Shown: positions 19,049 to 48,048 of the stretch, piece by piece | Layout: every line of letters starts with the position of its first letter | How positions within the stretch are numbered: the stretch's first letter is position 1 | DNA from: Nemertoderma westbladi | Taxonomy: Eukaryota > Animalia > Xenacoelomorpha | Length of the DNA stretch: 64,000 bases | Assembly: GCA_032718475.1 (NCBI GenBank) | Contig: JAUCBJ010002551.1 | Span: 20,160-84,159, forward strand | Reading direction: 5' to 3' | Position numbers and translations under genes: made by a program | Notes under the pieces: generated by a model | The model's database searches: none | The model's input: only the letters and a program-made list of their open reading frames with translations | What the model was told of the DNA's origin: nothing

Positions 19049-19167
19049 TATACTAATATACTAGATATATGGTGGAGGGAAGTTTGAACGATGAGATTGT
19101 ATCTGTATGTAGAAGGTAGAAAGAGAGAGTAATAGAGCTTACAGAAAAACGCTATTCAGTTCTTATA
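19049..19167 (+). repeat. 5' LTR of the Gypsy-like element (TATA...TATA)
   Basis: Direct repeat of 23756-23874, differing at two positions (ATGAGATT/ATGACATT and GAGTAAT/GAATAAT). Confidence 0.93.
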
Positions 19168-19179
19168 AGCTAACCGGGC
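19168..19179 (+). promoter_or_regulatory. Putative primer-binding site AGCTAACCGGGC
   Basis: Lies immediately 3' of the 5' LTR. It is the reverse complement of GCCCGGTTAGCT, which has the form of tRNA nt 1-12 (7-nt acceptor strand plus U8-A9-G10-C11-U12), as in tRNA-Lys. Confidence 0.55.
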
Positions 19180-19273
19180 CTGTACAGCTGTAGTGCAGTA
19201 TTGATGTGTTGTTGATAATAGTTCTGTAGTTGGTATGATTGACTGTTAATTTTATAAATATCAATGGTGTAAT

Positions 19274-20284
19274 ATGGCTCCGAAGTTGAGCGACTATGTA
19301 AAAAAGTATAACGGTAGTGGGGACCCACTGACATGGTTAATGATATATAATGACACGTTCGATGTGCTGAAAACAGAAGGCGTTGTCAAGGAGGAATCAA
19401 GGGCAACGTATCTCAGGTTATCCTTGGATGGTGCTGCGTATGCCGTCGTTAGTCAGTTATCTGAGGCGGATAAGTTTAGATGTGACAGAATACAAAATGC
19501 AGTGATAGCGGCTTTTGCTGTGAATGAGTATACTGCTTATGAGCAGTTTAAGAATAGAGAATTGAAACCGGGAGAATCGGTAGATGCATTCGTAGCGGAC
19601 TTGAAAAGATTAATCGGATTGGTGACAGGGAACTTAGTTGAGAATGCAGTGTCTAGAAAGATGGTTTCAGCTCAGATGGTAAGCGGTATACCGGATGATA
19701 TTTCAACGGAAGTTAAAGCTCTGGCCGGAGAAATGGACCTCGAAAAACTACTCGTACAAGCACGTCGGTTGTTGTCCGAAAAAGAACACAGTACAGCTGA
19801 TATAGTCGGTGCAGCAGGGCATGGTTATAGCGCAGAGATAGACTACAACAATGGATACCCAGGTCGTGGCCAATGGGGGCGGAGTCAACGAGGTGGACGA
19901 CCATATGGAGGTGGACGAGGTGGATATGGTGGAGATACCGGTAGGGGATCCAATAATTGCTTTCATTGCGGGAGGAGCGGCCATTTTGCCAGGGAGTGTT
20001 ACTACAGAAATGGTGGCGGTGGCGCTCAGCAAGCGTTTAGTAGATATCAGGTGAGCTGCTATCGATGTGGAAAACAGGGCCACATTGTAAGGGAGTGTAC
20101 TGAAGTTACGGGAAATTGTTCGACGGCGACAGGAGTTCGGGAATATGGTAGTAATATGGAGGGAAACGTGCGAGGGGAGATGGCGGAACATGCGCCAGTG
20201 GTCGTTTCCCCGGAGATACAGGGAAGGCGCCAGCCCCAGTCATACAATCAATATGTGGAGGCAAGAAGGCCACCGCGTTGGTAG
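19274..20284 (+). CDS. gag: Gag of the Gypsy-like element
   Basis: 336-aa ORF with a capsid-like region (GESVDAFVADLKRL), an RGG-rich stretch, and knuckles CFHCGRSGHFAREC and CYRCGKQGHIVREC. Confidence 0.92.
   Translation: MAPKLSDYVKKYNGSGDPLTWLMIYNDTFDVLKTEGVVKEESRATYLRLSLDGAAYAVVSQLSEADKFRCDRIQNAVIAAFAVNEYTAYEQFKNRELKPGESVDAFVADLKRLIGLVTGNLVENAVSRKMVSAQMVSGIPDDISTEVKALAGEMDLEKLLVQARRLLSEKEHSTADIVGAAGHGYSAEIDYNNGYPGRGQWGRSQRGGRPYGGGRGGYGGDTGRGSNNCFHCGRSGHFARECYYRNGGGGAQQAFSRYQVSCYRCGKQGHIVRECTEVTGNCSTATGVREYGSNMEGNVRGEMAEHAPVVVSPEIQGRRQPQSYNQYVEARRPPRW
20161..20230 (+). promoter_or_regulatory. -1 programmed ribosomal frameshift signal (gag-pol)
   Basis: G GGA AAC heptamer in the gag frame at 20161-20167, then a 6-nt spacer. 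Stem GGGGAGATGGC (20174-20184) pairs with GTCGTTTCCCC (20201-20211). Loop GCGCC can pair with GGCGC at 20226-20230. The -1 frame is open from the heptamer into the protease. Confidence 0.85.
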
Positions 20285-22148
20285 ATACGGGATGTAGCCG
20301 AGGAGTAATGACTCGAAAGTTTAGTTCTGGATTTATTGGATATATTAGAGAATGTGACTCAAATAATAGGATAGCTATGTTAGATGGAACTGTTACCCAG
20401 AAATTAAAATGTGAAATGATTACTGCTGTGAAAATTGATGGATTAAATGAAATTGAATGGTCATTTCTCATTGTTGATTATATTGTTGGTAATTTGGATG
20501 TTGTAATCGGGTGGGATTTTATCAAAGCACACGGAGGAGTTTCAATTAATTGTTCAAATAATGAGCAAGTGACAATTACATTCGGTTGTGCTGCATATCC
20601 AATTTCAGCGATTGGAACAGTAGAACAGAAACCACAGTCTATGTTAATTATTGAGAAAAACGATTTCAACGCAGAATTTAATGGGAACAATTGGGAGATA
20701 GAATATAAATTTAAAGACGACATTCCCCCGGACAGATTAAATAATACCGTGGCAGAGTATAAAATTCCTGAGAAATTACAAGATAAATATGAACAAGCAG
20801 ATGAAGGGTGGATAAATAACGGCTGGTTAAAGGAGATTAATTACATTCCCAAGGCGCTGATACCACTTATGCACAAAAACGAACCCCGTAAAGACAGAGT
20901 AAGACCCATTATGGACTTCAGGGAACTGAATAAACATTTAAAAAACCAACCTGGTACCGACGCTGCAGTGAGCAATGAGAAACTGAGAAAATGGATGAGA
21001 AAGGGAAATCAAACGGCCGTTATAGACCTAAAAAATGCATACATGCAGGTTCATGTCAATCAGAAATTACACCCATACCAAGTTGTAAAATTTAAAGGCA
21101 AACTCTATGAAATGACGAGATTAGGTTATGGTTTAGCCCCAGCCCCGAAGATACTAGATTCAATAGTAGAGAAAGTTCTAGAACAGGACAAGAAGATAAA
21201 AGATGCAGCAGATAATTTTCGTGATGACATTTATGTAGATGTGAGTAAGGTAGAAGCGATAGAAGTTGTAAATCATTTGAAAAGGTATGGACTCGGAAGT
21301 AAGGATCCAGTTGAAATAAAGAATGGAGCAAGGGTACTCAGTATTTCTGTAAAAGATGGCAAATGGCGACGAGATTCAGAATTGCCTCAACCAGAGGAAA
21401 TTGAGAAATCAATAAGTCATCGTAGATTGTTGGCAATCATAGGCAAATTACGTGGAAATTACTTGATTGGGGGATGGCTGAGAGTAGCATGTTCCTGGCT
21501 ACAAAGACAGGCGTCCAAAACATTAATGGACAGTGCAGTAGATGATGATGTAAGAGAGAAATTGCTGGAAACAGTTGTGAGAGTGAACAAACATGACCCA
21601 GCTCATGGACATTGGCCGATATCAAATATAGATGTTGGCGAAGTATGGTGTGATGCCAGCAACATCGCATTGGGAGCATTGATTCGTATTAATGGGATTG
21701 TAGCAGAAGACGGAACCTGGCTGAGGAAGAACATGGATAATGAGCATATAAATGCAGCTGAACTCACGTCTGTAGTTGAAGGATTAAACATGGCCATGGC
21801 GTGGGAATTAAAAAATATAACTATATGGACAGATTCATCAACTGTATATGGTTGGGTCAATGCCACAATAAACGATGAACATCGAATCAGAACACATGGT
21901 CTATCCAGGATGTTGATTCTAAGACGCCTAGATATAATTAAGAAAATTATAAATGAATATAAGTTGAACGTTTCTATAAAACTGATACCATCAAGTAAAA
22001 ATTTAGCGGACTGCTTAACCAGAGTGCCAAAGCCATGGATAATGAAACCAAAAGTAGAGATAGTGGCTATTGGAAAAACTGGCTGTACACCAGAAGATGA
22101 AAATAGGTGTGGAAGAGATGCTGTTGGCCGAAGAATACAGAAACTACA

Positions 22149-22646
22149 CGAAGTGGGGACTTCGCGCAGCACGAAGTTGGCAGAGCCTTAGCGAATTGAC
22201 AATTTATGCAAATAGTCACGTTGGCCCTCTAGCGGCAGACTGGAGAACTGCAGATGGATTCGCCTCCTTTGAAAGTCACAGCTAATGGTCTAATACATAT
22301 CTGCCAAGTTTCAGCTTAAACGGATTAAAAGCAAAGAAATGGGAGGGCATTTAATGTTTAGACATGTGGCCCTCTAGCGGGAGACCATTGCACTGATGGT
22401 GTCTGAAAGTCTCTCAAAAATCTCAACTTTTGCTCATATTGATACCTACAAATTTTCAACTTGGCAGCTTTAAATCCGACAAAGTTATTAGCATGTCAAA
22501 ATCGTAACGACGACGACAACGACGACGACGACAACGACGACGACGACAACGACGACGACGACGACGACGACAACTATTTGCATAAATTGACCCACCCCCT
22601 AACAGTGTCAATTCGCTAAGGCTCCGCCAACTTCGTGGCTCGCCCC
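22149..22646. mobile_element. Non-autonomous MITE/HINE-like insertion in the integrase gene
   Basis: Subterminal inverted repeats CACGAAGTTGGCAGAGCCTTAGCGAATTGAC / GTCAATTCGCTAAGGCTCCGCCAACTTCGTG, a second inverted pair AATTTATGCAAATAGT, a terminal hairpin CGAAGT-GGGG-ACTTCG, and an (ACG)n microsatellite at ~22508-22571. Possible ACA duplication at 22146-48 and 22647-49. Confidence 0.85.
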
Positions 22647-23755
22647 ACATGAAATAGCGCATACTGGAGCAGAAAGAACTGAAAGTTTGTGTCAAAGGGA
22701 CAGAGAGTTACAAGGGAAATCATTTAACAAAGCAGTAATAATTGATATATGCAAAACGTGTGATAAATGTAATAGAATTGATCCAATGCCTATTAAGGTA
22801 GAAGGGGGTAGCTGTAAAGTCAATAAAGCTTGGCAACGACTGTCATTGGACATTACTAAAAATGAGGGAAAAACATATTTTACCATTGAGGACTGTGCAT
22901 CATCATTTACAATATGGCGACAGATTTACAGAGAAACCAGTGAAGTAGTCATTAGAGAACTGCAACAGATATTTATAGAGTGGGGCCCATCTGAGGAAGT
23001 GATAACTGATAATGGTCCGGCTTTCAGGAGCGAGAAGTTTAATGAGTTTCTAGATAGTTGGGAAGTTATTCATATAGCAGCTTGTGCTCATAGACCTCAA
23101 GGGAATCCCGTCGAGAGGGTTCATCGCACTATCAAGACATGGGCAGCCCGTTCAGGCAAAGATCCAGTAAAAGTAACGTTCTGGCACAACAGAACAAAAA
23201 TAAGAGGGAACCAATCGCCGCTAGAGAAACTAATGGAAGAACGAGTAATCAAACTGCCAGGAGTAAGTAAATACGAAAGAGTAGATCATGGTCCTCCAGT
23301 GAATCCACGATATTGTGTGGGAGACATGGTATATGTAAAACCGCAACAGCACATTCGTTGTACCCAGGAATGGAATGGACCTTTCAGAGTTGAAGAGGTT
23401 ATAGATCAACGTTCAATCGTAGTGAATGGATTTCGAAGACATTTGCAACATATCAGACCAGCAAAATATAAAACTCCAGCAACTATAGGTCATGATATTG
23501 AGGAACGAGCTAGCTCTGATGATCAAAATATTAGTGAAAGTGATAGTGAATCAGAGGAGAATGACGATAATGTTGAAGATAACGAACAAATAGTAAACAG
23601 TGAAAATGACGAAACAATAGACTACGGTGACAGTCAACCTAACTCGGGGAACCAATACTATATTACGAGGGGAGGCCGACAGTCTAGGCCGCCTGATAGA
23701 TTGCAATATATGTAAATAAGATTATGGTTATTGAGTTCTATAGAACTGGGGGGGA

Positions 23756-23874
23756 TATACTAATATACTAGATATATGGTGGAGGGAAGTTTGAACGATG
23801 ACATTGTATCTGTATGTAGAAGGTAGAAAGAGAGAATAATAGAGCTTACAGAAAAACGCTATTCAGTTCTTATA
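23756..23874 (+). repeat. 3' LTR of the Gypsy-like element
   Basis: Preceded by PPT GGGGGGGA (23748-23755); repeat of 19049-19167. Confidence 0.93.
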
Positions 23875-25862
23875 ACTTCGAACATCGGTTATGCAACCAT
23901 GGACACGCCCCCATCCTGTGGCTCGACTCGCGGCAGTAGAGACAACTAGTCCCTTTCTGGAATCGGAACAAACAGCTCCTTTCCTGGTGGGTCTGTCTCC
24001 CACAGTAGTCACAGCCAAGCACCAATGTCTCCCGCCCCACGTCGTCTTTCGTCCCAAGCGATCTCCGCGGTCTGTGGAGTCGCTGGTAGGCGAACTTCTG
24101 GACGTTAGTGTCCCTGTCTACGTCGATCTCCTCGCCCCTCTCGGGCATCATCTCCCCGAATACTACCTGTGGTGCCGTCCCCGGTTGCTCGCCCAACCTG
24201 ATAGTGCTCCCCGCGAAATCCATCGCCGGTTCCTTGTGCACCCAGGCCCGCTTGCCGGGTTTATCCCAGAAGGCCCTCGCCCCACTGGCCGTCACCACCC
24301 TCCCGCCAACCCAGTCCGTGTCCGAGTGGCCTATCCTCCCGATGGGCGGCATCTCTCCGAACTCGTCATCATCTTCGTCCTCCTCTGGCAGTGGCTCCAA
24401 CCCCGGTATCCCGGTGGATCCACTATGTCCCTTCCCGCCTTGGCTCTCGCCCGTAGCTCTCCATCCCTCTAGCTCCCCTAACTTCCTTAGCGGTTGGTCG
24501 CCTTCGGCGCCCGCTGGTATGGGCATCGCTTGCAACCCCGACATCGACTGTTTCGGCGATCCCACCGTCCATCCCAGTTCTCGCCCTAGAGACTCCCCCG
24601 AACTCCCTGATGAAGCCCAACGAAGTTCATCTAAGCCCGCCTGTTCCTCGAAGCCGTAACTCTGCGTCCTGGCCTCCTCCTCCCTCTCCTCTGCTTCTAT
24701 CCTTTCCCGTCTAGCGACTTCTTCCAGTCGCTTCGCCTCTCGTCTATCCGTCTCTAGCTCCTCCCATCTCTGATACGGCGTGTCTAGCTCCCCGTCTACC
24801 AGATGTCGGCTGTTGTAGTACACCGACTCGTCCTTCAGCCCCGGGTGGTCTACCAGACCGTTGAAAGCCGTCTTAAAGGCTCTTCTGTAGCTTAGGGGTG
24901 ATCCCGATAACAGAAATGCCGCTGGTTCCCTCTCGATAACCACGGTCATGAATAAGTTAAGCAGACTTATCATTATCCAATCCTCCTGCAGGATATATTG
25001 CTTCTGATATACCTTTATCGCTCCTCTTCGGAATTGATACACCTCTTGCTTTCCCGGCCTCGCTCCCCACTTTAGCGAGTTCGCTAGTTCTGCTCCGTAT
25101 TCCTCCCTGAACTTCCCCCAGTCCATCGGTTTGTGGCATACGAGCCCCTAATAGCTGGCCCATTGCCACCGCTCCGCATTGGCCTGTGTTCCCGACTAGT
25201 CCCAACCCGTCTGGTGCTGTCATAGCCATGAAGACCTTCTGCATATCCAGGAGGTTGTTGGCGTCCGGACCGATGATTCTCTCTGCGTCCTCGCGAATCG
25301 CCGATCCCACTTTCGTCGTTGACTTCTCCCTCACTAGGACCTGCACCGCCCTCGGCAGCCGGTCCAACTTCGGCCCATCCTTCTTCCCATACGTTCCCAG
25401 GTCAAATAGGAAAATGTCCCCATTTGGCGCGGCCAAATGTAGGAGTATGGTCCTGGCCGATCCTGCCGATCCTCTCCTTGAACCCTCCTCGTCTTCCACA
25501 GTCCCTTCGTCGTCTAGGATCATGTATCCTCCCCTGTTGACGGACTCTATGAACCTCTTCCAATCTTTCCTCGGTGACTCTCTCGCGTACTTCAGACCCC
25601 GAACTTCGCCTCGTCTCCTTTCACCACGTAGTGGAAATGCTCGAAGATCGCGTTGTCCAGCGACGGCATCCCGTAGGTCCCGACCAGCCGCTGTTCATGC
25701 ATCTCCCTGAAGTGGTCCTGTAGCGCTCGTGCTGCGTGACCCTTTCCTAACCGGTCGTAGTATCCCCTCATCCTCTCTTCCGGATGCCTCTTGGTGAAGT
25801 CCACCAGTATCTCCTTTCCTCCTGACTCCGCCTTTCACTTCCTGATCAGTTTCCCCGCCATT
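23875..25862 (-). pseudogene. Accessory ORF3 of BEL element 1: DEDDy (WRN/RNase D-like) 3'-5' exonuclease, acidic/coiled-coil region and CCHC knuckles
   Basis: ORF pieces 25592-25804, 24957-25523 and 23870-25126 join through two frameshifts (~25595, ~25145). Motifs: YMILDDEG (ExoI DxE), LLHLAAPNGDIFLFDL, LPRAVQVLV, KVGSAIREDAERI (ExoII), QKQYILQED (ExoIII-like). C-terminal CDYCGRQTHQERSC and CLYCRESSHRMGAC, plus a truncated third knuckle. Confidence 0.72.
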
Positions 25863-26685
25863 TCGAACTCTCCCGAACGCTCACCTATAAGGTGGTGCCT
25901 TACCAAGGCGCAATATAAGTGAGTGATGCAGCTAGGATGGTCTGTACGGTCCGATAATGGCCTATTCCTTATCTAATTTTGCCTTATAGCCTAAATTCCT
26001 ACTACTTAATTTTGAAGCTATTAAATGTACCCTAATTTGCAATTTTGTCAGTTACTTTTATTATGTTCCAGAATAATTTCCCTACTGTTACCATAATTTG
26101 TAACTTTTTAGCCCTATTCTTATCTTATTTATTTAATTTTTTAATTTAATTCTACTGTGCTACTACTTACTATTACCTATGGATTATTCTAGTTCATAAT
26201 CCACATTCTGACCTATCCTATGGGCCTGTGCAGTACAGCAGTATATGTCGCGTGGCCTACACGATCTATCCAACTGTACTCATATGCCCCCCTCTCGCTA
26301 CTAACTGCTAAGTAATATCCATATTATACATATCCCTTCTACCCCTATTACTAATCGGTACTACGTACCCTCTAACTCTTACTCTAATACCTCTAACTAG
26401 CGGTACTACGTACCCTCTAACTACTCTAACTCCACTAACTAACGGTTTTTTTTTTTTTTTTTTATGCCTCCATCTCTTTATTCAAAAGAACGTAATATGT
26501 TGCCGTAGTAGTAGCACAAACTGATAAAATCAACGTACTGTATTAAAGTTACAAAATTATTAAAATAGTTAATATTAAAAGAAGGTCCAATAAGTAGCAT
26601 CAATAAGAAGTTATCATTTCTTTGTCCACCTTCTTTCTCCAGTTACACTATTGTTATCCATATTCGCGGCCAGTTACCAGAACCC

Positions 26686-29600
26686 TTAGATGTCCCCGTT
26701 TAACCCCTCAGTCGCCGCGCACTCCATCCCTATGTCACGGAAGGGTTGGATTAGGCGTTTCTGTTTTGGAGTCCTAACCCCCCGTAGACACATAATTGAA
26801 GACCGGAGAAGAGCGAAGTTCAACCGGGTTCTTATAAGGGGCACAGTCTTTGAATAGGGAGAGTTTCTCTTTTCGGATATTATAAGTGCGATCCGGTTTA
26901 TGATGGCATGCGCACTTCGGCTGGCTCCACCCGTCGTCGCCATGATGAAGGGCACGAATCCGGCGTGCTCGATCGAGTTCACTCGCTCCTCGTACTTTCT
27001 CCGCTTGTCGCCTTCGTGTTTTCTGTATGCGGAGGGAATGGAACGAGGGTTCGACGCGCATAGAGGGTTGAAAATCTTCACGTCGACGTAAATCCTTTCG
27101 AAACGACCTCCCCATAATCCACTGGCGGCGACATCGAGACGGGCGTCCGGTTCGCGGGTGGTGCCGGCCAACCGGAACTCCTCGCCTTCCACAGGTTGTA
27201 GGGTGGGCTCTACCTCAACATCGTGAGCTGCCTCGTTGAGGAGTTCGGCCAGGTAGTCCCTAATCTCATTGTGTCTTATGGTAGGGTAACCACCTGTCGG
27301 GCAATGGAGACAGTGTGAGATGTCGAATGGAATCCCGCAGACACAGTGGGAAGGCAACCTGTCTGGCAGCCACCCATATCGCAAACACAGACTATCCCGG
27401 AAGGCTGTTTTATGTAGGGAAAATCCGTATTTTTGAATAGGGATGGCTGACAGCCATGCTGAGGCCCCCTTCTCGCAAGAAAGTGTACGGAGATACTTCG
27501 ACTCGTAGGACAGCTGATCGTGAACTGTTTCACACTTGATCTTTCTAAGTTCTGCCCTCTCCTTCATTATTTCAGTGACGATTGGTCTCTGAGATTGCCG
27601 GTAACTTTCAGCTTCGACCCTCAAAGGTTCACAGATCCTACGTGAATGTTCATAGCTGTGTCTTAAGTCGCCAGGTTGGTTTATGGCCATACCGCCCTCT
27701 TTCACTGGGAGGGCGAGTAGCTCCCTCTCTGTGTGCCCTGGTGGGGGCCGGCCTGTTAGTGAGGGAATCAAAGAGTCCACGATATATTGCTCTACACTGT
27801 CTAACTTTGCGGTGAATTCCGGGGTTGTCCGGGACAAGTAGTTAAATTTAGGCTGTAGACTGTAGATAAGACAACTATATGCGGGGTGTGGGGCCGTAAC
27901 AGCAAACTCCTTCAACCTGGTCAGCTGGTCTATGAGTTGTTCAACGCGTTCTGTGAGGAACGTTTCGCATGCCCGGGGAGAACCTATCACCGAACCCAAT
28001 ACCCTGTAGCCATCGGTCAGTTGGACCCCAGTCCCAGCGAATATATCCTCAGCTATGGCCCGATGTTCGTCTTTAACTATAAGGACAGACTTTTTGGCAT
28101 TGGGGAAATACCCATACCCTGGGCCAATCATATTTACCTTCTCCCAGTAGGCTCTTAAACGGCGGAGGCGACCCGCTACATTTCCATCATCTGCAAACCA
28201 TTTTTTGTGATTGAAGGCTTGCTAGGGTGGTTCGCAGGCCCGTCGGCTGAAGGAGGAGACGGACCCGCCACAGACCCGTCGGCTTGAGGAGGAGACAGAC
28301 CCACCACAGACCCGTCGGCTGGAGGAAGGGACAGACCCACCACGGACCCGTCGGCTGGAGGGGGAGATAGACCCACCACAGACCCGTCGGCTGGAGGAGG
28401 AGACAGACCCACCACAGACCCGTCGGGTGAAGGAGGAGACAGACCCACCACAGACCCGTCGGCAGGAGGAAGGGACAGACCCACCACGGACCCGTCGGCT
28501 GGAGGGGGAGACAGACCCACCACAGACCCGTCGGCTGGAGGAAGGGACAGACCCACCACGGACCCGTCGGCTGAAGGAGGAGACAGACCCGCCACAGGCC
28601 CGTCGGCCGGACGAAGGGACAGACCCCCCACGGACCCGTCGGCTGGGGGATGAGACAGACCCATCACAGACCCGCTGGCTGGAGGAAGGGACAGACCCAC
28701 AACAGGCCCGTCGGCTGGAGGTAGGGACAGACCCACCACGGACCCGTCGGCTGGAGGAGGAGCCAGACCCACCACAGACCCGTCGGCTGGAGGAGGAGAC
28801 AGACCCACCACAGACCCGTCGGGTGGAGGAGGAGACAGACCCACCACAGACCCGTCGGGAGGAGGAGGAGACTGACCCACCACAGACCCGTCGGGTGGAG
28901 GAGGAGACTGACCCACCACAGACCCGTCGGCTGGAGGAGGAGACAGACCCACCACAGACCCGTCGGGTGGAGGAGGAGACAGACCCACCACAGACCCGTC
29001 GGGTGGAGGAGACTGACCCACCGCAGACCCGTCGGCTGGAGGAGGAGACAGACCCACCACAGACCCGTCGGGAGGAGGAGACGGACCCGCCACAAACCCG
29101 TCGGGAGGAGGAGACAGACCCACCACAATCCCGTCGGGTGGAGGAGGAGACGGACCCACCACAGACCCGTCGGGAGGAGGAGACAGACCCACCTTAGACC
29201 CGTCAGGAGGGGACAGACCTAAACCAGACCCATCGGCCACCTTAGACCCGTCGGGTGGAGACAGACCCACCACAGACCCGTCGGGTGGAGGAGGAGACGG
29301 ACCCACCACAGACCCGTCGGGAGGAGGAGACAGACCCTCCATAGACCCGTCAGGACGGGACAGACCTAACACAGACTCGTCAGCCACCTTAGACCCGTCG
29401 GGAGGAGACAGACCCACCACAGACCCGTCGGGAGGAGACAGACCCACCACGGACCCGTCGGGAGGAGACTGACCCACCACAGACCCGTCGGGAGGAGACA
29501 GACCTACCACAGACCCGTCGGGAGGAGACAGACCCGCCACAGACCCGTCGGGGGGAGACAGACCCACCAGAGACCCGTCGGGAGGAGACAGACCCACCAC

Positions 29601-30917
29601 AGACCCGTCGGGGGGAGACAGACCCACCACAGACCCGTCGGGAGGAGACGGACCCACCACAGACCCGTCGGGAGGAGACAGACCCACCACAGACCCGTCG
29701 GGAAGAGCCGTACCACTTGTAGGATCTGGTTCAATCGCCAGAAGTCCCAGCTTCCTTATCATTGGTAGGGTTCCCACTCCATACATCGCCAGACCGATAG
29801 GATCCCCTTGTGTGGAGCCCTCCTTGGACCACATAACCTCGTTGTCGACAAATAACGGGGTTGGTTCCCGGTATGTATTTGTAAGGATCACGGATAGTAT
29901 GGGACATATGTGGTGCGCGTTTAGCAGGGTTAACTTTCTATTTAGGGCGTTAAATGCGTTTGAGGCGTCTATCAGTAGTATTCCTTCACATTCCGGGGAT
30001 TCATATTTCTCCCGTAAGGAGTGTATAGCGTGTTCGGTACCTCCAATCTGTCCCACACATAACTGAGTATTACCGGCTATCCTCTCGAGGTCAACCTTAG
30101 CATAACTCATTATCGCTTTACCTATTATTCGCCGGAGCACTTCACCCACGCCGATGGGCCGAACACCAGGTGATTTATCGATCGGTACGAGTCTGCAGGC
30201 GTTAAACGCGATCGCACTCCGGGGATCGATATACTCGGTAGCGAGTCTCCTCGCCACTACCGCCACGGCGTTTCTTAAATCGTTTGATGTGTTGCTGAAG
30301 GCTGTCAGTATCCGCCGCCAACCATCGGCATCCAGGCCCGAAGGCCCGGGTGATCCATGGGTATGTAGCGCCGCAGAAAGGATGGCCTCGCCCTTTATCC
30401 CTTCAAAGACTACAGGGTGGAAGATTAGGGATTCCGCCCATGTGTCTTCGATTAGTGAAGGATCGACTGGACCTGCAGGAGGATGTTTCTCCCGTAATAT
30501 CTCTTTGACGGTTTTATCCCCGACCATTTCATTTAATCCCATAGGCGAACCGCCTTTACCATTAGCTAAAACGTCCATAGCCGCTGCAATTCTGCCGGTA
30601 TTCATCCTGGACACAAAATCTCGGCGTGGTTTATCAGCATCAGTTCGAGGAATGGGTTTAGTTCTTCGGACCTGGATCGCTCTCCCTTCCTCAACTAGAG
30701 CTGAAATATCGCCGGTTTCCCATAGTTCAAGTCTCCTCCTAAGGGTTTGGCTAATACTGGCAGAAGCCCCATAGCCTTCTGAAGGTTTGACGGCGGCCTG
30801 CAACAGGAGTTTCGGGGCCACCATAACGGCTAACAAAGCCACACCTTCCATGTTGGACTTTTCGCCAAACGCTTTCAGGAGTTTTGTTATTGCTATTGTT
30901 AGTGTTAATAGTTTTTG
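26686..30917 (-). pseudogene. RT-RLE ORF of the CRE-like element, with one frameshift near 28200
   Basis: ORFs 28176-30851 and 26686-28131. The second frame extends upstream as KWFADDGNVAGRLRRLRAYWEKVNMIGPGYGYFPN; the shift maps at or just before an A6 run. Confidence 0.85.
28238..29703 (-). repeat. In-frame GC-rich minisatellite (mainly 27/30/33-bp units) inside the RT domain
   Basis: The + strand repeats ACAGACCCACCACAGACCCGTCGG(GA/CT)GGAGGAG. It encodes (P)PPDGSVVGLS repeats between the QGDP and FADD motifs. Confidence 0.95.
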
Positions 30918-31345
30918 CTAACTAACGGTACTACGTACCCTCTTACTACTCTAACTCCACTAACTAACAGTACTACGTACCCTCTTACTACTCTAACTCT
31001 ACTAACTAACGGTACTACGTACCCTCTCGCTACTCTGACTCTACTAACTCCACTAACTCTCTCTACTAACTAACGGTACTACGTACCCTCTTACTAACCT
31101 CTAACTCCACTAACTAATGGTACTACGTACCCTCTTACTACTCTAACTCCACTAACTAACGGTACTACATACCCTCTCACTACTCTGACTCTACTAACTC
31201 CACTAACTCTCTCTACTAACTAACGGTACTACGTACCCTCTTACTAACCTCTAACTCCACTAACTCCACCAACTCTCTCTACTAACTAACGGTACTACGT
31301 ACCTCCTAACTAACTAACTGTTTTCGGTACTACGTACCTCCTAAC
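30918..31345. repeat. ~42-bp minisatellite in the BEL-1 pol/ORF3 spacer; continues at ~26350-26445 on the far side of the CRE insertion
   Basis: Repeats of CTAACTAACGGTACTACGTACCCTCTTACTACTCTAACTCCA with length variants. Confidence 0.9.
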
Positions 31346-31474: not shown

Positions 31475-34400
31475 CTAAGGTGCCCCTTCTAGTAGACAGC
31501 ATTTCCCTACAGCTCTCCTGTAGGTTTTTCTGTCCTTCGCACCTATCTTGCCACCTATCCGCACCTCTACCGATCGGACTCTTCCGTCCTCATCGGAGTA
31601 GGTGCCTACAACTCTCGCCAACCGCCACTGGTTGTTGATGATAGTATCATCCGTAACGATTACGAGATCTCCCTCTCTTAACTCCCTATTTGGCCTCCTC
31701 CACTTGCTTCTTTTATGAAGCGTGGGTAGGTATTCCTCAACCCATCTCCTCCAATACTCTGCGCTTATTGCTTTAGCGACTTTCCAACTTTGGCGGGAGT
31801 GTATGTCATCTGGGTCTACACCCCGCATATCGATGGTCGCTGGCCTTTCCATTAGAAAATGGCTGGGCGTCAGCACATCTAGTGATTCAGGGTCATCATT
31901 CTCCGGATATACAGTAGCTGTCTGCTATTAATGATACCCTCACACTTCGCAAGTACTGTTCTCAAGACGTCCTCTGTGACCATATGGGTGTTCATTAACT
32001 TCGTCATGAGACGCTTCGAACTGCCCACCAGTCTCTTGACGCATCCTAGTGTATGCGGTGCATACGGCGTCCTCCTCTCCCACTTTACTTGTCGTCGCCT
32101 TATGGCTGCCCTGACTTCCTCTCCTTCCAGAATGTCCAAGGCCTCTGCCATCTCGTTCTCAGCTCCCACAAAGTTGGTTCCGCTGTCGGAGTACATTACT
32201 GCGATCGTCCCACCTTTGCGGTCTCTAAACCTTTCTAATGCATTAATGAATGCTGATGCGGTTGCATCTTGGGCGAGTTCTATCCCTACCGCCCGTGTGT
32301 TGTTATATACGAAGATAATACCATAGCGTTTCTCCGTGTGCCGCATCACTTTGATCTTTATCGGCCCGAACATGTCCACAACGCAATGCGTAAATGGCGG
32401 GTCGTGTTGTCTTACCCTACTCGCCGGCAGTGGTGCCATCTCCTGTATGGCTCGCTCCTTCTTCGCTCGTCGGCAGGTCTGGCACTGCCCCACTACCGCT
32501 TTTACCTTCTTTCTCAACTGCTTGACCCAAAAGGTCCTCCGTATCTCCGTAAGGGTTCGGTTGGTGCCCCCGTGCAATATCGATTTGTGGGAGTCCCAGA
32601 TAATCTGGTGGACTATTGGCGATCCTGTGGGGATGATGATGGGCTTCGGTGGTACAACGATGCTGTTGTTGTAGCCCACCCTAGAGTTCATTACTAGAAT
32701 CCCGTCATCATTAAGTTGTGGTGACAGCGTGATTAACTCGCTGTCCCGTCGAAGATGCTGTTGCTTACCGACGCGTTCCACCTCGTCGCCGTAGTTCTTC
32801 CGTTGTTCATAGCGGATGACTGCTTTGGCCGCTCCTTCCAGATCTATGGTTGTCCTGATCTTCTTGCCTTTGCCAACTCCCGCGAGGAAATTCCCGAAGG
32901 ATCTCCAGTACGCCACTAATTTCTTGGTCTTATACCAACTAGAGCTGTAGCTGAGGAGTTTATCCGTCGGGTTATCGCACAGTTCTTCTGGTTTAGGTTG
33001 CACGTCCCTTATCTCCCTCACCATCTGGGAGTATATCTCTTCTCCCTCTGAATCTCCTTCTTCTCCCTCTGATACTGCCTCTCCTGAGCCCGGGTCCACC
33101 TTTCTCATCGGTGGCCAGGCCTCCTTGTCGCTCAGAAACTGTGGCCCATGTTGCCACAATACCTCCTTTTTTAAGAATGTGTGGCGTACCACGCCCCTCG
33201 ATAACAAGTCCACTGGGTTCTCGTCCGTTGGGCAGTAGTGCCACCTTTCCAACTCTGTGGTCGCCCTTATTTCGTCCACCCTATTCGCGATGAATATAGG
33301 GTATCTCGTCCTTTCGTTATGTAGCCAACCAAGCACTACCATGGAATCCGTCCAGTAGTGTGTCTCCACTATGTTGGGAATAGTATCCACTAGGTAGGCT
33401 GTGGCCCTAACTCCTAGTCTCGCAGCTGTCAATTCTAGTTTGGGAACTGATGCTGAATCTGGCGGCGTTGACTTCGCTTTGCTAAAGGCCAGTCTGGGCT
33501 TGTGAGCCCCCTCTCGTTGTACTAAATAGAGTGCCGCTCCGTATGCCTCCAACGACGCATCGGAGAACATGTGTAAGTCCAGATTCGTCATGTTCCCATC
33601 CGGGAAATACACTCTTGGCATGCTGTATGTTCCCATCTTCTCCAAACCTTCTGTCCACTTACACCACTGTTTCTTGATCTCTTCTGGTACCTCTACGTCC
33701 CACTCATCCTTCAGTTTGTATACTCTCTTGAGTATCTGTTTCCCCGTGACTAATAGTGGGGATGCTAGACCTAGGGGATCGTATATTCTTGCTATGTATG
33801 ACACATAGCCTCTCTTTGTGTGGATGTCTGCGCCCTCCTGGCTCAGCTGGTACTTCAGTTCATCTGTCTCTCTGTTCCACGCGATTCCCAGTGCCTTCTG
33901 TTGAGACTCTGTCCTCTTGTTCGCCATGTCCTGCCCTTTGGCTGTTGTGGGATTATCCATGGTCGATTCTGGTCTCTCGTCCTCTATCGCCTTGATAAAT
34001 TCCTCCGAACTGGATTGGAATTTGGTCAGGTTAAAGCCGGATCCTTTTAGGATGTCGCGAACCTCGCGCCCTGTGTCCAGTATCTCCTTAACCGTATTTC
34101 CAGACTCCATTCCGTCGTCTACGTAGAAGCCGCGTCGAATCATATCGACGGCCCTAGTGCTGTATCTATCCTCCTTCCCCTTCACTGTATCTCTTACTGC
34201 CATAGTCGTCGTAAATGAAGACGACTTGGCTCCCATGTTCTGTACTACCATCTTGTACATCGGTATTGTCGACGGTTCTTCGTCGCCGTTGTACCATAAG
34301 AAGCGTTGACTGTCGCTATCCTCTTCCGTCACACGGACTTGGTTGAACATGCCTTCTATGTCACACATGAAGGCGTGTTTCCCATTTCTAAATCTAAGTA

Positions 34401-37400
34401 GGACCTCTATCCCTGAGTTGTATATGTTCGGACCTTCTAGTAGATAGTCGTTTAAGCATTTCCCGTTGGTCTTTGCCGATGCGTCAACTACCATCCGCAG
34501 TTTACCTTTCTTCGGATCTAAAGCCACGTGGAGTGGTAGGTAATACGTCCTATCCGTGTTTGGTTCGTCGACCGGTAACTCCACGGCCCATCCTTTCTCG
34601 ACGTACTTCTTAATTGTTCTGTGGATGTACTCATTCTTCTCGGGGCTCCGTTTTAGTGTCTGCTTCAACTTACGAAGCCTCGTGAGCACCATCCCTTTAT
34701 TATCGGGCAATGGTAGCTTTGGTAGCTTCCATACCATTCCTATGGTATACCGCCCCTCGTCGCATTTCATAGACTCCTCTACGCTTTGTTGAGCCTGTTT
34801 GTCTTCCACCGGGGTCCCGACCCCGGTCTCCTTTAATCCTTCAAAATCCTGCCTGAGCAGTCTCGTAAGCTGCTCCTCTGCTCTCTCATCACCCATTTCC
34901 TGCATAGTTCCCGCGAACATGCATCCTGATGTCTCCGACATCCTAAATGGTATCTTGCTCTTGATTGGGCCACTCAGCGTCCACCCGAATGGTGTCAGTA
35001 TCGCCACCGGGTCACACTGCTTGTCTTCGCCGAAGACCGTTTGCATTCTTTCGTGGGCCGTTGGGCAGTCCATTCCTACTATGATGGATACCTTCCTAAC
35101 GTCCACCTCTGGGATTGAGAAGTCGATATCATCCAGAAATTTATATTGTTCGACCTCGATGTTGGTTGGCCGTCTGGCATTGATGTTTATTGACTCTATC
35201 ACTTGGATGGGGTCGATGCTCGCCCCATAGTCGCATCCTGGTGCTATTGCTGCAATGGCGCACCGTCCGGTTCTCATCTCCAGGACCTCATCTTTGCTGG
35301 AGATGGTTGTTACCGCCATTCTACTCGGCCTCGTTCTCAATCCTATCTCTTCGGCCACCCAATCCTCGATTAATGTGAAGGCAGCTCCACTATCAACCAG
35401 CATCAGTGTGGTTACTGATCGATTGCCTTCTCCAATCACTCGCACTGGTACTACCCCAAGTAGCACCGTTCCTCTCTTCTTCGCCCCTACCGTGCTCGTT
35501 GCCATCGTTTGGCCTTTCCTTTGACCGAACTTGACCGGCGTCTCCTTGCATTGCCTAGCTCTATGTCCACTCATCACACATCGCGAGCAGATCTCATTTC
35601 TCGCCGCATATTCTACCTGATCTTCCCTGGGTAGCGCTTGCCAGTACCTGCAGTTCATGGTTTGATGAAGCGCATTTGTATGTAGCTGGCATTTGCTCTT
35701 TGGGTTGTAGCCCTCCTTATGCAGTGCATTGCGTATCGCAGTCGCATTTGCTCCAAAGTCCCTACTATTCTTGTTGTTTGGGTTCGGCCTACTGGGCGTA
35801 CTAGGGTTATATTTATTTGTGTTGTTATTGTTCCCCTGTCCGTTCCATGGTGTGGTCTTACCTTCGGCTACCTGTGGACTTGCAGTCCCCTGCGTCGCTG
35901 CGTATGGCAATGATTGCCTGAGCTTTGGTAATGCGTTTGACGTGTTGTGTTCTGGTTTCGGCCTATGGTAATCGGTTCTTGGTCCCTTTCCCAGGCTGTC
36001 CTCACTATAGACTGGGTCGGTTATTAGTTCAGCTTCGTAGTTTAAGAAGCTCGACATTTCTTCTAAACCCGGTTCCGCACCCTTCCTATCTCGAGTGGAG
36101 AAAGCGATTTTTCTCCACTTGTTGCGCAGCCACATCGGTAGTGCCTGCGCTATCGTGGTGATGTTGTTGGACGCGTTGAGTTCGTATGGTGCGTTGTTGG
36201 CTTGTTCGCGAATGTCTTAATGCTAATGGGACTATCCTGTAGGCCACCCGATGTTATGCCTCTCAGGGTTTGCCGGATAATCTTGGCCGGGTGCCCGTAT
36301 TCCCTGTCCAATGCCCGCCATGCCGTCGTGAAGCCGCCCTCTATACCCTGGTATTGCCTCACGATGTCGTATGCTGGGCCTCCTGTGTATACTTGGAGAT
36401 ATTTTAGGCACTCCGCCTGCGTCAAGTTCTTTGTTAGTATCTCGTTACTATACATGCGCCGAAACTGTAGATATTCTTCTGGCCTACTCCCATTGAATTT
36501 AAATGGTTCCACGGGTGGTAGCTCGATCCTAGTTTTTAGCGCATCGATCAATGTGGCCATTCCCATCGCCTGCGCTTCCAATGGGTTCGATGGATGTTGC
36601 ATAGTTTCTCCTGTTGGGTGCGGTCCATCCGTCTTATTTCCTGCCTTCCTTTGGCTAGGGTATATCATTGGGGGTAGCGGCCCCCTCCATATTTCTGTGT
36701 CGCATGATCTGTTTTCATCCAAAGGTCTCGTTGTTCTTACTCCTATCGGGGTATATTGTTGATATTGTGATGGGGGAATGTCACCCTGTCCCCCCCCCAC
36801 CAGTATGCTTGGTACTGGGGTTGATGTTAATATATTGGGGCCCATGCACCTATCCGCAATAATTCCCCCCTCCCCTGGGTATATGTTATGTCCCTGCATG
36901 CTGTAGTCATACTGCTGTGCTGGTACCGGTATAGGCCTATCATCTTCTGGCCTACCTGCCGGTATGTACTCCGCGACTTCCGGGTTTAATTCCGTCGTCC
37001 GTGCTATCCTATCGCCTACATTATTCCTGTCAGCATGGCCTATGGTATGTGCAGTAAGGCCTACAGTATGTCCTACAGTCTGTATGTGTCACTCGGGATC
37101 GAAGTTTATTCTTCTCGAATAATCCTCCCCGCGGCTACCGTATTCTCGATTGGTAGGTATATCCCGTCGGAAAGTTTCTCTTCGACCCCCTCTACTGCTC
37201 TCGTCTTCGTACCGGTACATCGTGTACCCCTCTCCCGACGCGTAATGCGTCTCGTCAGGTCGCGTCTCTCCGGGACGACGGCAATCTCCCGAAGTTCGAC
37301 CCCACCGACACTCTCTTTCCATCTCGACTACCGACGGCTTGCTGTCCGTCCTCGCTCTCCTATCGTTCGCGGCGATACTTCTCCTACTGTCTTCTCTTCT

Positions 37401-39970
37401 TCTCCTTTCAGTGCAGTATTCCCGCTTGTGAGATCTCTCGTCGACCTCCCAGTTAAACTCCACTGTTCTTCTTCCCTCTTCTGATCGGGCTCGACGCTCC
37501 GTCCGCCCTCTCGCGACGTCAACCTGCCTCTCTCTGCTCGATCGCACGCCGCTGGGGATACTCGCAATCCCCCTATCACTCTCCGTCACCGGGTGTTGCG
37601 GTTTACCTAATTCGGCCCGCGCATTATCCGCCGACGCCTGTGGGACATTCTCTGCCCCCCCCTCTCGCCACTAACCTGTTGCTGTGGGGTTCCCGTAGTC
37701 CCCCCCCCCACTCGCCACTAGCTTCCCGTTGTGGGGCTCCTGCAGCCCCCCCCCCCCCCCCCCCCACTCGCCACATATCACGCCGTTACCTCTTACTTCA
37801 CTTCTACACCCCTCTCCAGTCGACACAATGTTTCTACTATGGCTGGGTTCGCTTACCCCTGCCTCTCTCCCCACTACTACTTGGCCTACCGGGCCTACTC
37901 CGGGTTGGCTCAACCCCGCCACCTCCTGCCTACTAATTACGTGGCCTACCAGGCCCACTTCGGGTTGACTCAACCCCGTCGCTTCCTGCCTACTAACTAC
38001 GTGGCCTACCAGGCCCACCTCGGGTTGACTCAACCCCGCCACCTCTGGCTCGTTAACTACGCGGTCCATCAGGCTGGCTTCCGGGCTATACATACACGCC
38101 CGTCGCGTTCACATTAATAGCACCACAGGTACCGTTATTGGTTAAATCAATTAAATCCTCCACCCCAGTTAAATTATTTTGTACACCCAAATTAGAAACG
38201 GAATTATTTTGTTCGTTCAAAATAAAGTTATTCGGATTATTTTGCGCAATTGCGTTTCTTGAATTATTTTGTAAATTCGAATTCAGATTATTATTTAGAT
38301 TATTTGGATTATTCGGATTATTTTGCGTAACTACATTAATATTAGAATTATTTCCTACATTAATATCAGAATCATTTGGATTTAAATTTAAATTACTACT
38401 ACTAGGTAAAATATTTCCTGCAATAAAAGTTTGGTTAGAGTTATCCAATACGGTAGTATTAATATTAACGACGTCTACTGTAGCATTATTATTACCCCCC
38501 CCCCCCCCCCCCCGCCCGTACGGTCACACCAGTTTCGTGTCTGTCGTGCGGTCCCTGTAAGTGGGGTATTAATAAATGTATCCACGGCCCTTGGATCCTC
38601 GAAAATATTCGAGTCAGTCCCGCTCTCAGACGCCCCTATCCGCGCCAGTTCCAGTTCGCGCGTGCGTCTAGTTTTGTACTCTATAAGCTCACTTTGGCGT
38701 TTTTCCAATTCTTTTTGCTCACGCTCCTCTCTTGCCATTCTCTCCCGACCCTCCTGTGCGTTCTGGTCGGCCAATTCCGCCTCTCTCCTAGCTCCCTCCC
38801 TTTGCCTCGCCTCATGCTCTTTGCGTTCACTTTCCTCCCTCGCCTCACGTTCCTTGTGTTCCGCCTCACGCTCTTTGCGTTCATTTTCCTCTCTCGCCTC
38901 ACGTTCCTTGCGTTCACTTTTCTCTCTCGCCTCACGTTCCTTGCGTTCCGCCTCACGCTCTTTGCGTTCATTTTCCTCTCTCGCCACACGCTCCTCTTGT
39001 TCCTTCCTCCCTATTTCCTCACACTCCCTAAGGCTTTTCGCGGCCCTTTCGGCCCTCTCTCCGGTTTCTCTAATCAGTTCCATTTCCTTCTCTAGTAGCA
39101 TTCTCCCCTCCTCTAACCGTCTATTTACTTCTCTCTGACCTTGCGCTATCAGGTCGAGATGGTACGTGGCATTTATCTCTCTCACCCGTCTTTCTTTTAC
39201 GGAGGATGTAGCAGACTTATCGGTTGTGACGGATTCCCTCCGCCTTCCCGATCTACTAACTTTCCCCCTTTTCCCAGAACTTCCTCCGACCGACGAGACC
39301 GAATCCTCGGGGTTAACCTCGGATTCGCCCTCCTGCGGCCTTCTCCATCCCACTAATTTTATACCCCGGGCATCGACTAAGTATGGCCCTATGTACACTA
39401 CGCTAGGTTGCATACCCCTACACCGCCATAAGTCACACAGTTCCTCGGCAACCCCTCTCGCTCTCTCCTTGGCCAGTTCTCTCTGCCCGAAGCGCATTAG
39501 ATGACTAAAATGTCTATCCGACTCACCTAGTCCTGTTGTCAACTTTACCTCATCTATCTTCGCCCCCTCCTTGGCCTCCTTAAGTAGCTTCCGGGTCGCG
39601 TTGTAGGCCCGTCAAAGTCGGTCAGAAACCCCGACGTCCTCGTCGCTGACCTCTCCTCCATCTCTCCGGGTCTGACGTCGTACCGGCGGCCCCACCGTCG
39701 CCGTTCCGGTGGGCCGTCCATCGCCCTCAGCCTGTGGCTGGCCGGCGACATCGGTATGTCGACCGACGTGTGTCGACTCGTCTCTTTCTCCTTCCATCTA
39801 GCTCTCTCCTTCTCTCAACTCGACTTCCGGCTCCAGATGGCCCCCCTCATCTTGAACTGCCGGATGACCTAGCCGGACCGGCCTGGCGTCGTAGGCCTAT
39901 ACCGTCTGGTCGCGGCCTCGCGAATCGTTAGTTCTTCGTCCGGGGTCCGCGTTGGCGTAACGTCACTCAT
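31475..39970 (-). pseudogene. Gag-Pol of BEL/Pao element 1, with several frameshifts, some in G homopolymers
   Basis: Coiled-coil ERE/KER repeats, an Asn-rich segment, DUF1759-like FNGSRPEEYLQF, Cys/His cluster CQLH...H...C and CSRC...GHRARQC, protease LVDSGA, RT YYLPLH...CDIEGMFNQV...FYVDDG, RNase H MFSDAS...PKLEL...WTDS, integrase VDMFGP...YSDSGTNF, and DUF5641-like YWRRWVEEYLPTL...WRLARV. Confidence 0.9.
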
Positions 39971-47272: not shown

Positions 47273-48048
47273 CAATAGTAGGAATGTGTTTTACTGAACT
47301 ACGGTTCGGTAGGACTAAAGTTATTTGAAAATTTTGTATTTTGAGGTAAAGGTTTGTATTTGATTAGCTAAGTGCTAATTTTTTGAAATAAAATTTGATT
47401 TGAACCGCGTGTAAAATATTTTTGGAATTGAATACCGGTGTTTAAAAGGGTTTAAATACCATATTGTACCGTTACAAAATTTTCGTAAAAGTAAAACCTA
47501 ACTCTTTTGTTTTTTCAGGATTCAGAACTCATTTCTAGACTGTAACGGGAGCAAGACCGTGTTTAGCAAGTTTGGGAGATAGATAACTCAACAACTTTGG
47601 TTGGGAAAATCGCGTTTCGTCCGCAACGTTAAAAACGGAAAGGTTCACGTCCGGTTTGTATTTGGGAATCTGTTTTCTGGAGAATTATTGGAGTGGGTGA
47701 GTTCGAAAAGTTGCATAAATAAGTTAGGCATTACCGTATTAGTTAAAATTATTGTGGGTTCCACTGTCTCAAGTATTTATGCATTCCGTATGATTTCTTT
47801 GTTCATTGCTGAATTAGTCCGTATTATTGTATTTAATTTACCTTTTTGATAACGCATATCGTTATCCAATTTATTTGTTATAAAATTGGCCGCTAGGCTA
47901 ATTTTATTATATACTTATTCCGTGACATTTATTTGCTATAAAATCGGCCGGTAGGCTAATTTTACATGACTGTAATTAGTACCGTTTTATACAAATACGG
48001 TAAACTTGATACTTTGACACTCACTTTACTTGACTTACAACTACCGAA

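What the first reader, a model, noticed from the sequence alone, without database searches (positions are those of the whole stretch)
23875..25862. BEL/Pao retrotransposon carrying a DEDDy (WRN/RNase D-like) 3'-5' exonuclease fused to zinc knuckles in the env position
Seen: joining three minus-strand ORF pieces across two frameshifts gives a >650-aa protein downstream of, and co-oriented with, BEL pol. It contains YMILDDEG, LLHLA..G.IFLFDL, LP..V..LV, KVGSAIREDAERI and QKQYILQED in the order expected for ExoI/II/III, then an acidic/coiled-coil region and CCHC knuckles. Established: this motif series typifies WRN/EXD/MUT-7/RNase D DEDDy exonucleases. DEDDy accessory ORFs are known in some Gypsy-type and Penelope-like elements (e.g. 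in bdelloid rotifers) but are not a standard part of BEL/Pao. Inference: an element-encoded RNA-binding exonuclease that could trim or degrade host small RNAs (anti-silencing) or process the element's own RNA or primer.
Basis: partly seen in the sequence, partly recalled or inferred. Interest (0 to 1): 0.85.

Follow-up and report, generated by a model that had tools for sequence, protein, structure and literature searches.

The report
BEL retrotransposon carries exonuclease-knuckle gene
A broken copy of an abundant BEL/Pao jumping gene carries, where a viral coat gene would sit, an extra gene that other copies keep conserved and that likely encodes an RNA-trimming enzyme joined to zinc knuckles predicted to grip RNA, an arrangement so far described only for unrelated rotifer elements.

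Summary
Largely confirmed. The motifs lie at the stated place, in order. The middle piece resembles DEDDy 3'-5' exonucleases of the WRN/EXD2 type: 27 of 30 ESM Atlas hits carry PF01612, and it outscores 1000 of 1000 shuffles and the other 254 window ORFs on a DEDDy profile. Pfam, phmmer and a single-sequence fold gave nothing. ExoI and ExoII acids align; the last catalytic column holds Glu, with Asp beside it. This copy has four breaks, not two: an early stop, two frameshifts, and truncation by a Gypsy LTR that removed the element's 3' end. A 4.5-kb non-LTR element separates the gene from pol, but it sits inside a tandem array that continues on both sides, so pol and the gene were about 1.1 kb apart. 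In public runs, gag, pol and this gene are all highly repeated, and 24 of 33 variant sites are synonymous (9.3 expected). DEDDy ORF3s are published for rotifer LTR elements, and this scan noted Rrp6-like ones on other DNA. I found no paper on a BEL/Pao case. Function untested.

The parts
40904..41137 (-). candidate 5' LTR of the BEL element (TG...CA, 234 bp; right end uncertain, no second copy in the window)
   Evidence: sequence read; no partner by blastn
39985..40760 (-). 3' fragment of another non-LTR element inserted in the BEL leader, with a 10-bp target duplication
   Evidence: much higher repeat depth than the BEL element
36150..39611 (-). BEL gag region, in several frames (DUF1759 in 36150-37088)
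   Evidence: PF03564 E=2e-08
31475..36216 (-). BEL pol: protease, RT, Pao peptidase A17/RNase H region, integrase, DUF5641; broken near 31900
30918..31314 (.). 42-bp tandem array, pol-side part, starting about 160 bp after the pol stop
26447..30917 (-). inserted non-LTR retrotransposon (RT plus C-terminal Cys/His and nuclease-like motifs; CRE-like by recall), poly(A) tail, about 11-bp target duplication inside the array
   Evidence: low repeat depth
26350..26446 (.). 42-bp tandem array, ORF3-side part
25885..25892 (-). candidate splice acceptor 24 nt before the ATG (weak, untested)
   Evidence: pattern scan, one hit in 520 nt
25595..25861 (-). ORF3 piece 1: ATG, in-frame stop at codon 9, then 80 residues of unknown fold
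25152..25594 (-). ORF3 piece 2: exonuclease ExoI (D 25514, E 25508), LHLA/FLFDL strands, KVG motif, ExoII D (25289)
24980..25147 (-). ORF3 piece 3, start: W of the SNW column and ExoIII-like Y-I-L-Q-E-D (Y 24997)
   Evidence: aligned only in extended/global mode; not significant alone
24665..24766 (-). Glu/Arg-rich charged stretch (coiled-coil-like, inferred), followed by a low-complexity acidic linker
   Evidence: translation
23972..24013 (-). CCHC zinc knuckle 1
23903..23944 (-). CCHC zinc knuckle 2; a further Cys 6 residues on may begin a third, cut at 23875
19049..23875 (+). Gypsy-type LTR element (120-bp LTRs 19049-19168 and 23756-23875, 98% alike) whose 3' LTR truncates ORF3; flanks show no target duplication and no continuation of the BEL element

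Best explanation
The stretch is the broken third gene of an abundant BEL/Pao retrotransposon family, and in unbroken copies it likely encodes a soluble WRN/EXD2-type DEDDy 3'-5' exonuclease whose C-terminal CCHC knuckles are predicted to hold single-stranded RNA so that the nuclease would trim or destroy its 3' end. Shown: motif order, position behind pol, four breaks in this copy, repeat depth shared with gag-pol, synonymous-biased variation, no membrane segment. Inferred: the DEDDy fold (about 0.9), membership of the BEL element (about 0.9), expression from its own probably spliced message, and catalytic activity with Glu or the next Asp as fourth ligand (about 0.65). The target I think most likely is host silencing RNA aimed at the element (piRNA or siRNA precursors with unprotected 3' ends), which would make it a counter-defence gene; I give that last step about 0.35.
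For: ESM Atlas: 27 of 30 hits in PF01612 clusters at 0.94, 184-190 of 256 features shared in the top three, 10 of the 10 best hits with a family in agreement. Profile of 59 bacterial PF01612 domains: piece 2 scores 12.3 bits, 0 of 1000 shuffles reach it, and its ORF is first of 255 window ORFs (10.8 against 1.7 bits). hhalign local E=2.7e-4, 0 of 100 shuffles; extended alignment puts 11 of 11 chosen landmarks in register. Gly in the KVG column as in 28 of 28 WRN-like proteins and 1 of 31 RNase D, NrnC and PolA domains. The same 42-bp array flanks the non-LTR insert, with a target duplication. Purine share 0.61-0.64 on the element strand for gag, pol, both spacers and ORF3, against 0.40-0.53 for the three inserts. 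Summed contig depth in run X1: ORF3 bins 24,000-50,000, pol bins 53,000-78,000, CRE-like and Gypsy inserts 40-170. 24 of 33 variant sites synonymous against 9.3 +/- 2.6 expected, 13 of 15 in the exonuclease part. Other copies differ from the window at all four breaks. Highest 19-residue hydropathy 1.44. Precedent for the architecture: in TbRND a C-terminal CCHC domain raises RNA binding and cleavage by a DEDD domain (PMC7797062, passages).
Against: No Pfam, NCBIfam, PHROGs or PDB-sequence hit for the exonuclease piece. phmmer over 1.84 billion proteins gave 3 hits, all repetitive proteins matched over short stretches. hhalign probability is only 42%, and the significant local match covers only the middle of the domain; the ExoIII piece alone is at shuffle level (662 of 1000 shuffles reach it). 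Motif spacings (75 and 101) lie just outside the reference ranges (28-69 and 69-99, in 40 of 59 parsed). ExoIII is non-canonical. No contig listed spans pol, array and ORF3, and there is no 3' LTR to close the element here. At the second frameshift only 21-45% of depth in three runs shows a length difference. Summed depth is not a copy number, and only 40 of 365 variant rows were shown. The rotifer study found no clear link between DEDDy ORF3 and copy number and argued that a silencing role is less likely (PMC5408684). Nothing here bears on the substrate.
Confidence: 0.62

Rival explanations
1. Same gene, but the nuclease serves the element's own replication. The knuckles bind genomic RNA and carry the protein into the particle, where it trims the primer, RNA 3' ends or non-templated bases on cDNA ends, which reverse transcriptase cannot do.
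For: WRN-type signature; WRN and EXD2 act on DNA and hybrid ends (recalled). The knuckles resemble nucleocapsid knuckles (the best within-window tblastn hit, E=0.025, is the Gypsy gag knuckle). The rotifer paper proposes 3'-end processing of element RNA (PMC5408684).
Against: Most BEL/Pao elements replicate without it: nine distant BEL loci showed no ORF3 similarity (several are fragments), and a second BEL element in the window has a knuckle ORF3 with no exonuclease signal.
Confidence: 0.25
2. The exonuclease fold is catalytically weak or dead and works as an RNA-binding adaptor (like EXD1, Maelstrom or Egalitarian), joining element RNA to host transport or silencing factors through the charged helix.
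For: Glu in the last Asp column; long insertions between motifs; a charged helical stretch. Inactive DEDD derivatives in piRNA pathways are noted in PMC5408684.
Against: ExoI Asp and Glu, ExoII Asp and the ExoIII Tyr are all kept, and the fourth position is still acidic with an Asp beside it.
Confidence: 0.2
3. The gene belongs to a separate repeat that merely lies next to this BEL pol.
For: 5.6 kb between pol and ORF3 in a region of nested insertions; no 3' LTR; ORF3 depth about half to two thirds of pol depth in run X1; no listed contig bridges the array.
Against: The array continues across the insert with a target duplication. No terminal repeat was found between array and ORF3. Composition is continuous. 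Contigs in runs X2 and X3 join the two array parts, though with sides under 30 letters in repeated DNA.
Confidence: 0.08
4. The DEDDy likeness is chance; ORF3 is a conserved knuckle protein with an unrelated N-terminal domain.
For: No curated-library hit; fold prediction uninformative. Shuffled proteins reach Atlas scores of 0.9 or more 4 to 10 times in 100.
Against: Atlas and the profile tests agree independently, with shuffle and decoy controls.
Confidence: 0.07

Closest known systems
DEDDy ORF3 of bdelloid rotifer Juno and Vesta LTR retrotransposons and Athena/Terminon elements (Rodriguez et al. 2017, PMC5408684; passages and section 3.5 read)
   Same: Separate third gene behind pol; DEDDy-type exonuclease in place of env; catalytic acids slightly altered (DEED there); activity not shown.
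   Different: Here the carrier is BEL/Pao (that Juno and Vesta are Ty3/gypsy-type is recalled). The ORF is over 660 codons with a charged helix and CCHC knuckles; the paper says its DEDDy ORFs lack coiled-coil domains, and the words zinc and CCHC do not occur in it. The family is highly repeated. Whether the nucleases share an origin was not tested; some top Atlas clusters are mostly Rotifera.
Trypanosoma brucei TbRND (PMC7797062, passages read; PDB 7c42/7c45)
   Same: DEDD exonuclease followed by a C-terminal array of CCHC knuckles; there the knuckles bind RNA and raise cleavage.
   Different: Cellular, mitochondrial, RNase D subtype, short linker (28 residues) and four knuckles. Here the signature is WRN-type, the linker is about 320 residues and the gene is mobile. 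An analogy, not shown homology.
WRN, EXD2 and Mut-7/Nibbler exonuclease domains (PF01612)
   Same: DxE, QLA-like strand, KVG...D, Dl, W and Y..[D/E] landmarks in order.
   Different: About 20% identity to bacterial WRN-like proteins, insertions between motifs, Glu in the last Asp column, below Pfam detection.
Standard BEL/Pao elements, Belpaoviridae (PMC8742986 whole text; PMC3118150 passages)
   Same: gag with DUF1759, pol order PR-RT-RH-IN, Peptidase_A17 and DUF5641.
   Different: The described third gene is env-like; neither text mentions an exonuclease. This element is at least 12.0 kb without inserts, above the 4.2-10 kb described.

Membership tests
BEL/Pao (Belpaoviridae) | Pao-type gag and pol domains | tested here: met
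   PF05380 E=1.6e-40, PF18701 E=1.9e-25, PF03564 E=2e-08
BEL/Pao (Belpaoviridae) | pol order protease, RT, RNase H, integrase | tested here: met
   domain positions in 31882-36216
BEL/Pao (Belpaoviridae) | two LTRs enclosing all genes, ORF3 included | tested here: inconclusive
   5' LTR candidate only; 3' end removed at the Gypsy LTR
BEL/Pao (Belpaoviridae) | primer site complementary to tRNA-Arg or tRNA-Gly | not tested
   no host tRNA set; LTR end uncertain
BEL/Pao (Belpaoviridae) | typical length 4.2-10 kb | tested here: not met
   12,015 bp from LTR start to the cut, inserts removed; a descriptive range, explained by ORF3 and a long gag region
DEDDy 3'-5' exonuclease (PF01612, WRN/EXD2 type) | ExoI D-x-E | tested here: met
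   aligned to reference D and E in extended and global hhalign, outside the local core
DEDDy 3'-5' exonuclease (PF01612, WRN/EXD2 type) | ExoII Asp after K-x-G | tested here: met
   inside the significant local alignment
DEDDy 3'-5' exonuclease (PF01612, WRN/EXD2 type) | ExoIII Y-x3-D | tested here: inconclusive
   Tyr aligned; Glu at +4, Asp at +5; piece not significant alone
DEDDy 3'-5' exonuclease (PF01612, WRN/EXD2 type) | Pfam gathering score | tested here: not met
   no PF01612 row at E<=1 for the separate pieces; so filed as a diverged relative, not a Pfam member
DEDDy 3'-5' exonuclease (PF01612, WRN/EXD2 type) | RNase H-like fold | tested here: inconclusive
   single-sequence model pLDDT 35.7, no Foldseek match at E<=0.001; language-model features point to PF01612
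DEDDy 3'-5' exonuclease (PF01612, WRN/EXD2 type) | metal-dependent 3'-5' activity | not testable with these tools
   needs an assay
env glycoprotein | transmembrane segment | tested here: not met
   highest 19-residue Kyte-Doolittle mean 1.44 over the three pieces; the lost C-terminus could not be examined
Rotifer Juno/Vesta DEDDy ORF3 | common origin of the exonuclease | not testable with these tools
   no rotifer ORF3 sequences could be fetched
RNase D / Rrp6 subtype (TbRND) | His after the ExoII strand instead of K-x-G | tested here: not met
   window has KVG-S; His in 29 of 31 RNase D, NrnC and PolA domains, in 0 of 28 WRN-like

The most novel reading that the evidence does not exclude
A highly amplified BEL/Pao family has turned a WRN/Nibbler-type exonuclease with an RNA-gripping knuckle array into a suppressor of host small-RNA silencing, the first retrotransposon-encoded small-RNA trimming enzyme, and this is why the family expanded.
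Probability: 0.25. Interest if true: 0.85.

Novelty: new variant of a known kind. Interest (0 to 1): 0.55.

Why it matters
How retrotransposons resist small-RNA silencing is an open question, and the role of the rotifer DEDDy ORF3s has not been shown. This case extends the arrangement to a second LTR superfamily, adds a knuckle array that points to an RNA substrate, and shows purifying selection in an abundant family, which the rotifer study did not find. A family with many copies allows direct tests: whether ORF3-bearing lineages expanded more, and what the enzyme cuts.

Tried and rejected
No genome assembly is held, so copies could not be counted or tested for pol-ORF3 linkage. Sequence searches for relatives of ORF3 found none: word-index searches of longer proteins with pieces 2 and 3 (near-length proteins were not searched with these pieces), phmmer over 1.84 billion representatives (3 spurious repeat hits), viral and metagenome contigs, plasmids and phages (only E>=2), PDB sequences, Pfam, PHROGs, NCBIfam. 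The AlphaFold model of piece 2 without an alignment was unusable and its Foldseek rows are noise. I did not fold it with a WRN-like alignment because that would be circular. The knuckle region gave only Atlas leads under 0.9. No RNA holder was listed among the runs. Nine distant BEL loci (31-40% pol identity) showed no ORF3 similarity; several are fragments or end soon after pol. Homology of this ORF3 with the ORF3 of the second BEL element was considered and not accepted: E=0.18, knuckles only, no better than the Gypsy gag knuckle. An env role was rejected for lack of a membrane segment in the part present. No exact pairing of 7 or more bases was found between the post-LTR sequence and the LTR (LTR end set two bases off in that script). 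Literature: nine answered searches plus one on TbRND found no BEL/Pao exonuclease report. Malik, Henikoff and Eickbush 2000 is not held; I have an unsure recollection that nematode Cer elements of the BEL group were said to carry an RNase D-like domain, and could not check it. Repbase and GyDB annotations could not be searched.

Full report
Observation. The minus strand from an ATG at 25861 to 23876 holds 662 codons in three frames. The copy is more broken than stated. It has an in-frame stop at codon 9, frameshifts near 25596 and 25149, and ends at 23875, where the 3' LTR of a plus-strand Gypsy element begins (LTRs 19049-19168 and 23756-23875, 98% alike). Beyond the Gypsy element the BEL sequence does not resume and there is no target duplication, so the end of ORF3 and the BEL 3' LTR are lost.

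Is it an exonuclease? Curated libraries do not detect it (Pfam, PHROGs 63, NCBIfam 99, PDB sequences 23), and phmmer over 1.84 billion proteins returned 3 repetitive, unrelated proteins. Two other lines support it. The ESM Atlas put 27 of 30 hits for piece 2 in PF01612 clusters at 0.94, with 184-190 of 256 features shared in the top three and 10 of the 10 best family hits in agreement; PF01612 is on 17-47% of the members of those three clusters. I also built profiles from bacterial PF01612 domains; one seed was checked and has WRN as its best solved relative (E=2.9e-14). Piece 2 scored 12.3 bits on the 59-sequence profile and 7.1 on the 28 WRN-like ones; 0 of 1000 shuffles reached either score, and its ORF ranked first of 255 window ORFs. 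That pairwise P of 4e-6 would be about E=0.1 in a Pfam-sized search, which explains the missing Pfam hit. hhalign of a read-through with X at the break gave E=2.7e-4 (probability 42%; 0 of 100 shuffles) over the middle of the domain; extended alignment placed ExoI D and E, ExoII D, the SNW Trp and the ExoIII Tyr on their reference columns, 11 of 11 landmarks. The last Asp column holds Glu, with Asp next. The ExoIII piece alone is at shuffle level, and motif spacings are slightly longer than in the references. The KVG signature matches WRN-like proteins (Gly in 28 of 28) and not RNase D, NrnC or PolA (His in the next column in 29 of 31). The single-sequence fold failed (pLDDT 35.7).

Is it part of the BEL element? 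Upstream on the same strand lie a BEL gag and pol and a 234-bp candidate 5' LTR at 41137-40904. Between the pol stop (31475) and the ATG are 5.6 kb, of which 30917-26447 is a non-LTR retrotransposon with a poly(A) tail. It sits in a 42-bp tandem array present on both sides, with an 11-bp duplication at the junctions. Without it the gap is 1.14 kb (557 + 585 bp). Gag, pol, both spacers and ORF3 share a purine share of 0.61-0.64, unlike the three inserts (0.40-0.53). In contigs of public DNA runs the summed depth in run X1 is 24,000-50,000 over ORF3 and 53,000-78,000 over pol, but 40-170 over the non-LTR and Gypsy inserts; X2 and X3 show the same pattern. The four runs are at most three samples, one may be the window's source, and summed depth is not a copy number. 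Still, ORF3 and gag-pol are clearly repeated together while those two inserts are not. No listed contig spans pol to ORF3, and the joints across the insert have short sides in repeated DNA.

Is it under selection? One search showed the 40 best supported of 365 variant rows. I used the 33 inside the reading frames, dropping 4 upstream of the ATG, 2 at the first frameshift and 1 at the stop. Of these, 25 are third-position and 24 synonymous, against 9.3 +/- 2.6 expected (0 of 20,000 random placements). In the exonuclease part 13 of 15 are synonymous, and at the other two nearly all depth differs from the window, so they look private to this copy. Other copies differ from the window at the stop (essentially all depth in 4 of 4 runs), show a length difference at the first frameshift (all or nearly all depth in 3 of 4 runs) and at the second (21-45% in three runs, all in the fourth), and run on past 23875 with sequence unlike the window (12 and 9 contigs in X2 and X3). 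The family therefore kept an open, conserved ORF3, and this copy decayed after insertion.

How it likely works. There is no membrane segment in the part present, so it is not env. A DEDD domain with C-terminal CCHC knuckles has a cellular analogue, TbRND, whose knuckles bind RNA and raise cleavage (PMC7797062, passages). By inference ORF3 grips single-stranded RNA and trims its 3' end. A weak splice acceptor 24 nt before the ATG would fit a subgenomic message; no RNA run was listed. Most BEL elements lack the gene, so it is accessory. I rank degradation of host silencing RNAs first (about 0.35), end-processing in the element's own replication second (0.25), and a catalytically dead RNA adaptor third (0.2). 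None was tested.

Known systems. DEDDy ORF3s were described in rotifer Juno and Vesta LTR elements and Terminons, with activity unshown (PMC5408684; passages and section 3.5; echoed in PMC6431247, PMC5718144, PMC6338049, passages). The ICTV profile (PMC8742986, whole text), the BEL/Pao survey (PMC3118150, term search) and the Atlas virus paper (PMC9094657, term search) mention no exonuclease. Nine searches found no BEL/Pao case, but older subscription papers and Repbase were out of reach, and I have an unverified recollection concerning nematode Cer elements. Supplements were not read. Earlier notes of this scan describe Rrp6-like and DEDDh accessory genes in LTR elements of other genomes (unchecked); none matched this protein by sequence.

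Verdict. A real, conserved accessory gene of a BEL/Pao family, likely a WRN-type exonuclease with an RNA-binding knuckle array. It is a new variant of a known kind. Interest 0.55.

Noticed in passing
window 45338-61787 (+), ORF 57655-59172: A second BEL/Pao element with 1.9-kb LTRs (97% alike) also has a non-env third gene: 505 codons, three CCHC knuckles and an unknown domain after them, with no exonuclease signal and no membrane segment. Two BEL families in one window thus carry knuckle-bearing ORF3s.
   Followed up: partly
window 26447-30917 (-): The inserted non-LTR element has an in-frame 30/36-bp minisatellite of about 1.47 kb inside its RT region (28235-29701), and it landed in a tandem array, which may be a preferred target.
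   Followed up: no
window 30918-31314 and 26350-26446: The BEL element carries a 42-bp tandem array between pol and ORF3 that is highly repeated in the runs; it could be a regulatory array for ORF3.
   Followed up: partly
window 19049-23875 (+): The Gypsy element has short 120-bp LTRs without TG...CA ends, no target duplication, and after its 5' LTR a sequence that does not begin with TGG; a highly repeated short insert lies near 22500-22650.
   Followed up: no
window 40880-40925 (-): The sequence after the candidate BEL 5' LTR does not begin with TGG, so its primer is unclear; no exact pairing of 7 or more bases with its own LTR was found.
   Followed up: partly
window 1-16000: A 57-bp satellite of about 290 copies with strong GC skew fills the first quarter of the window.
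   Followed up: no
window 42776-43803: A roughly 1-kb element bounded by inverted arrays of a 15-bp unit (foldback- or MITE-like).
   Followed up: no
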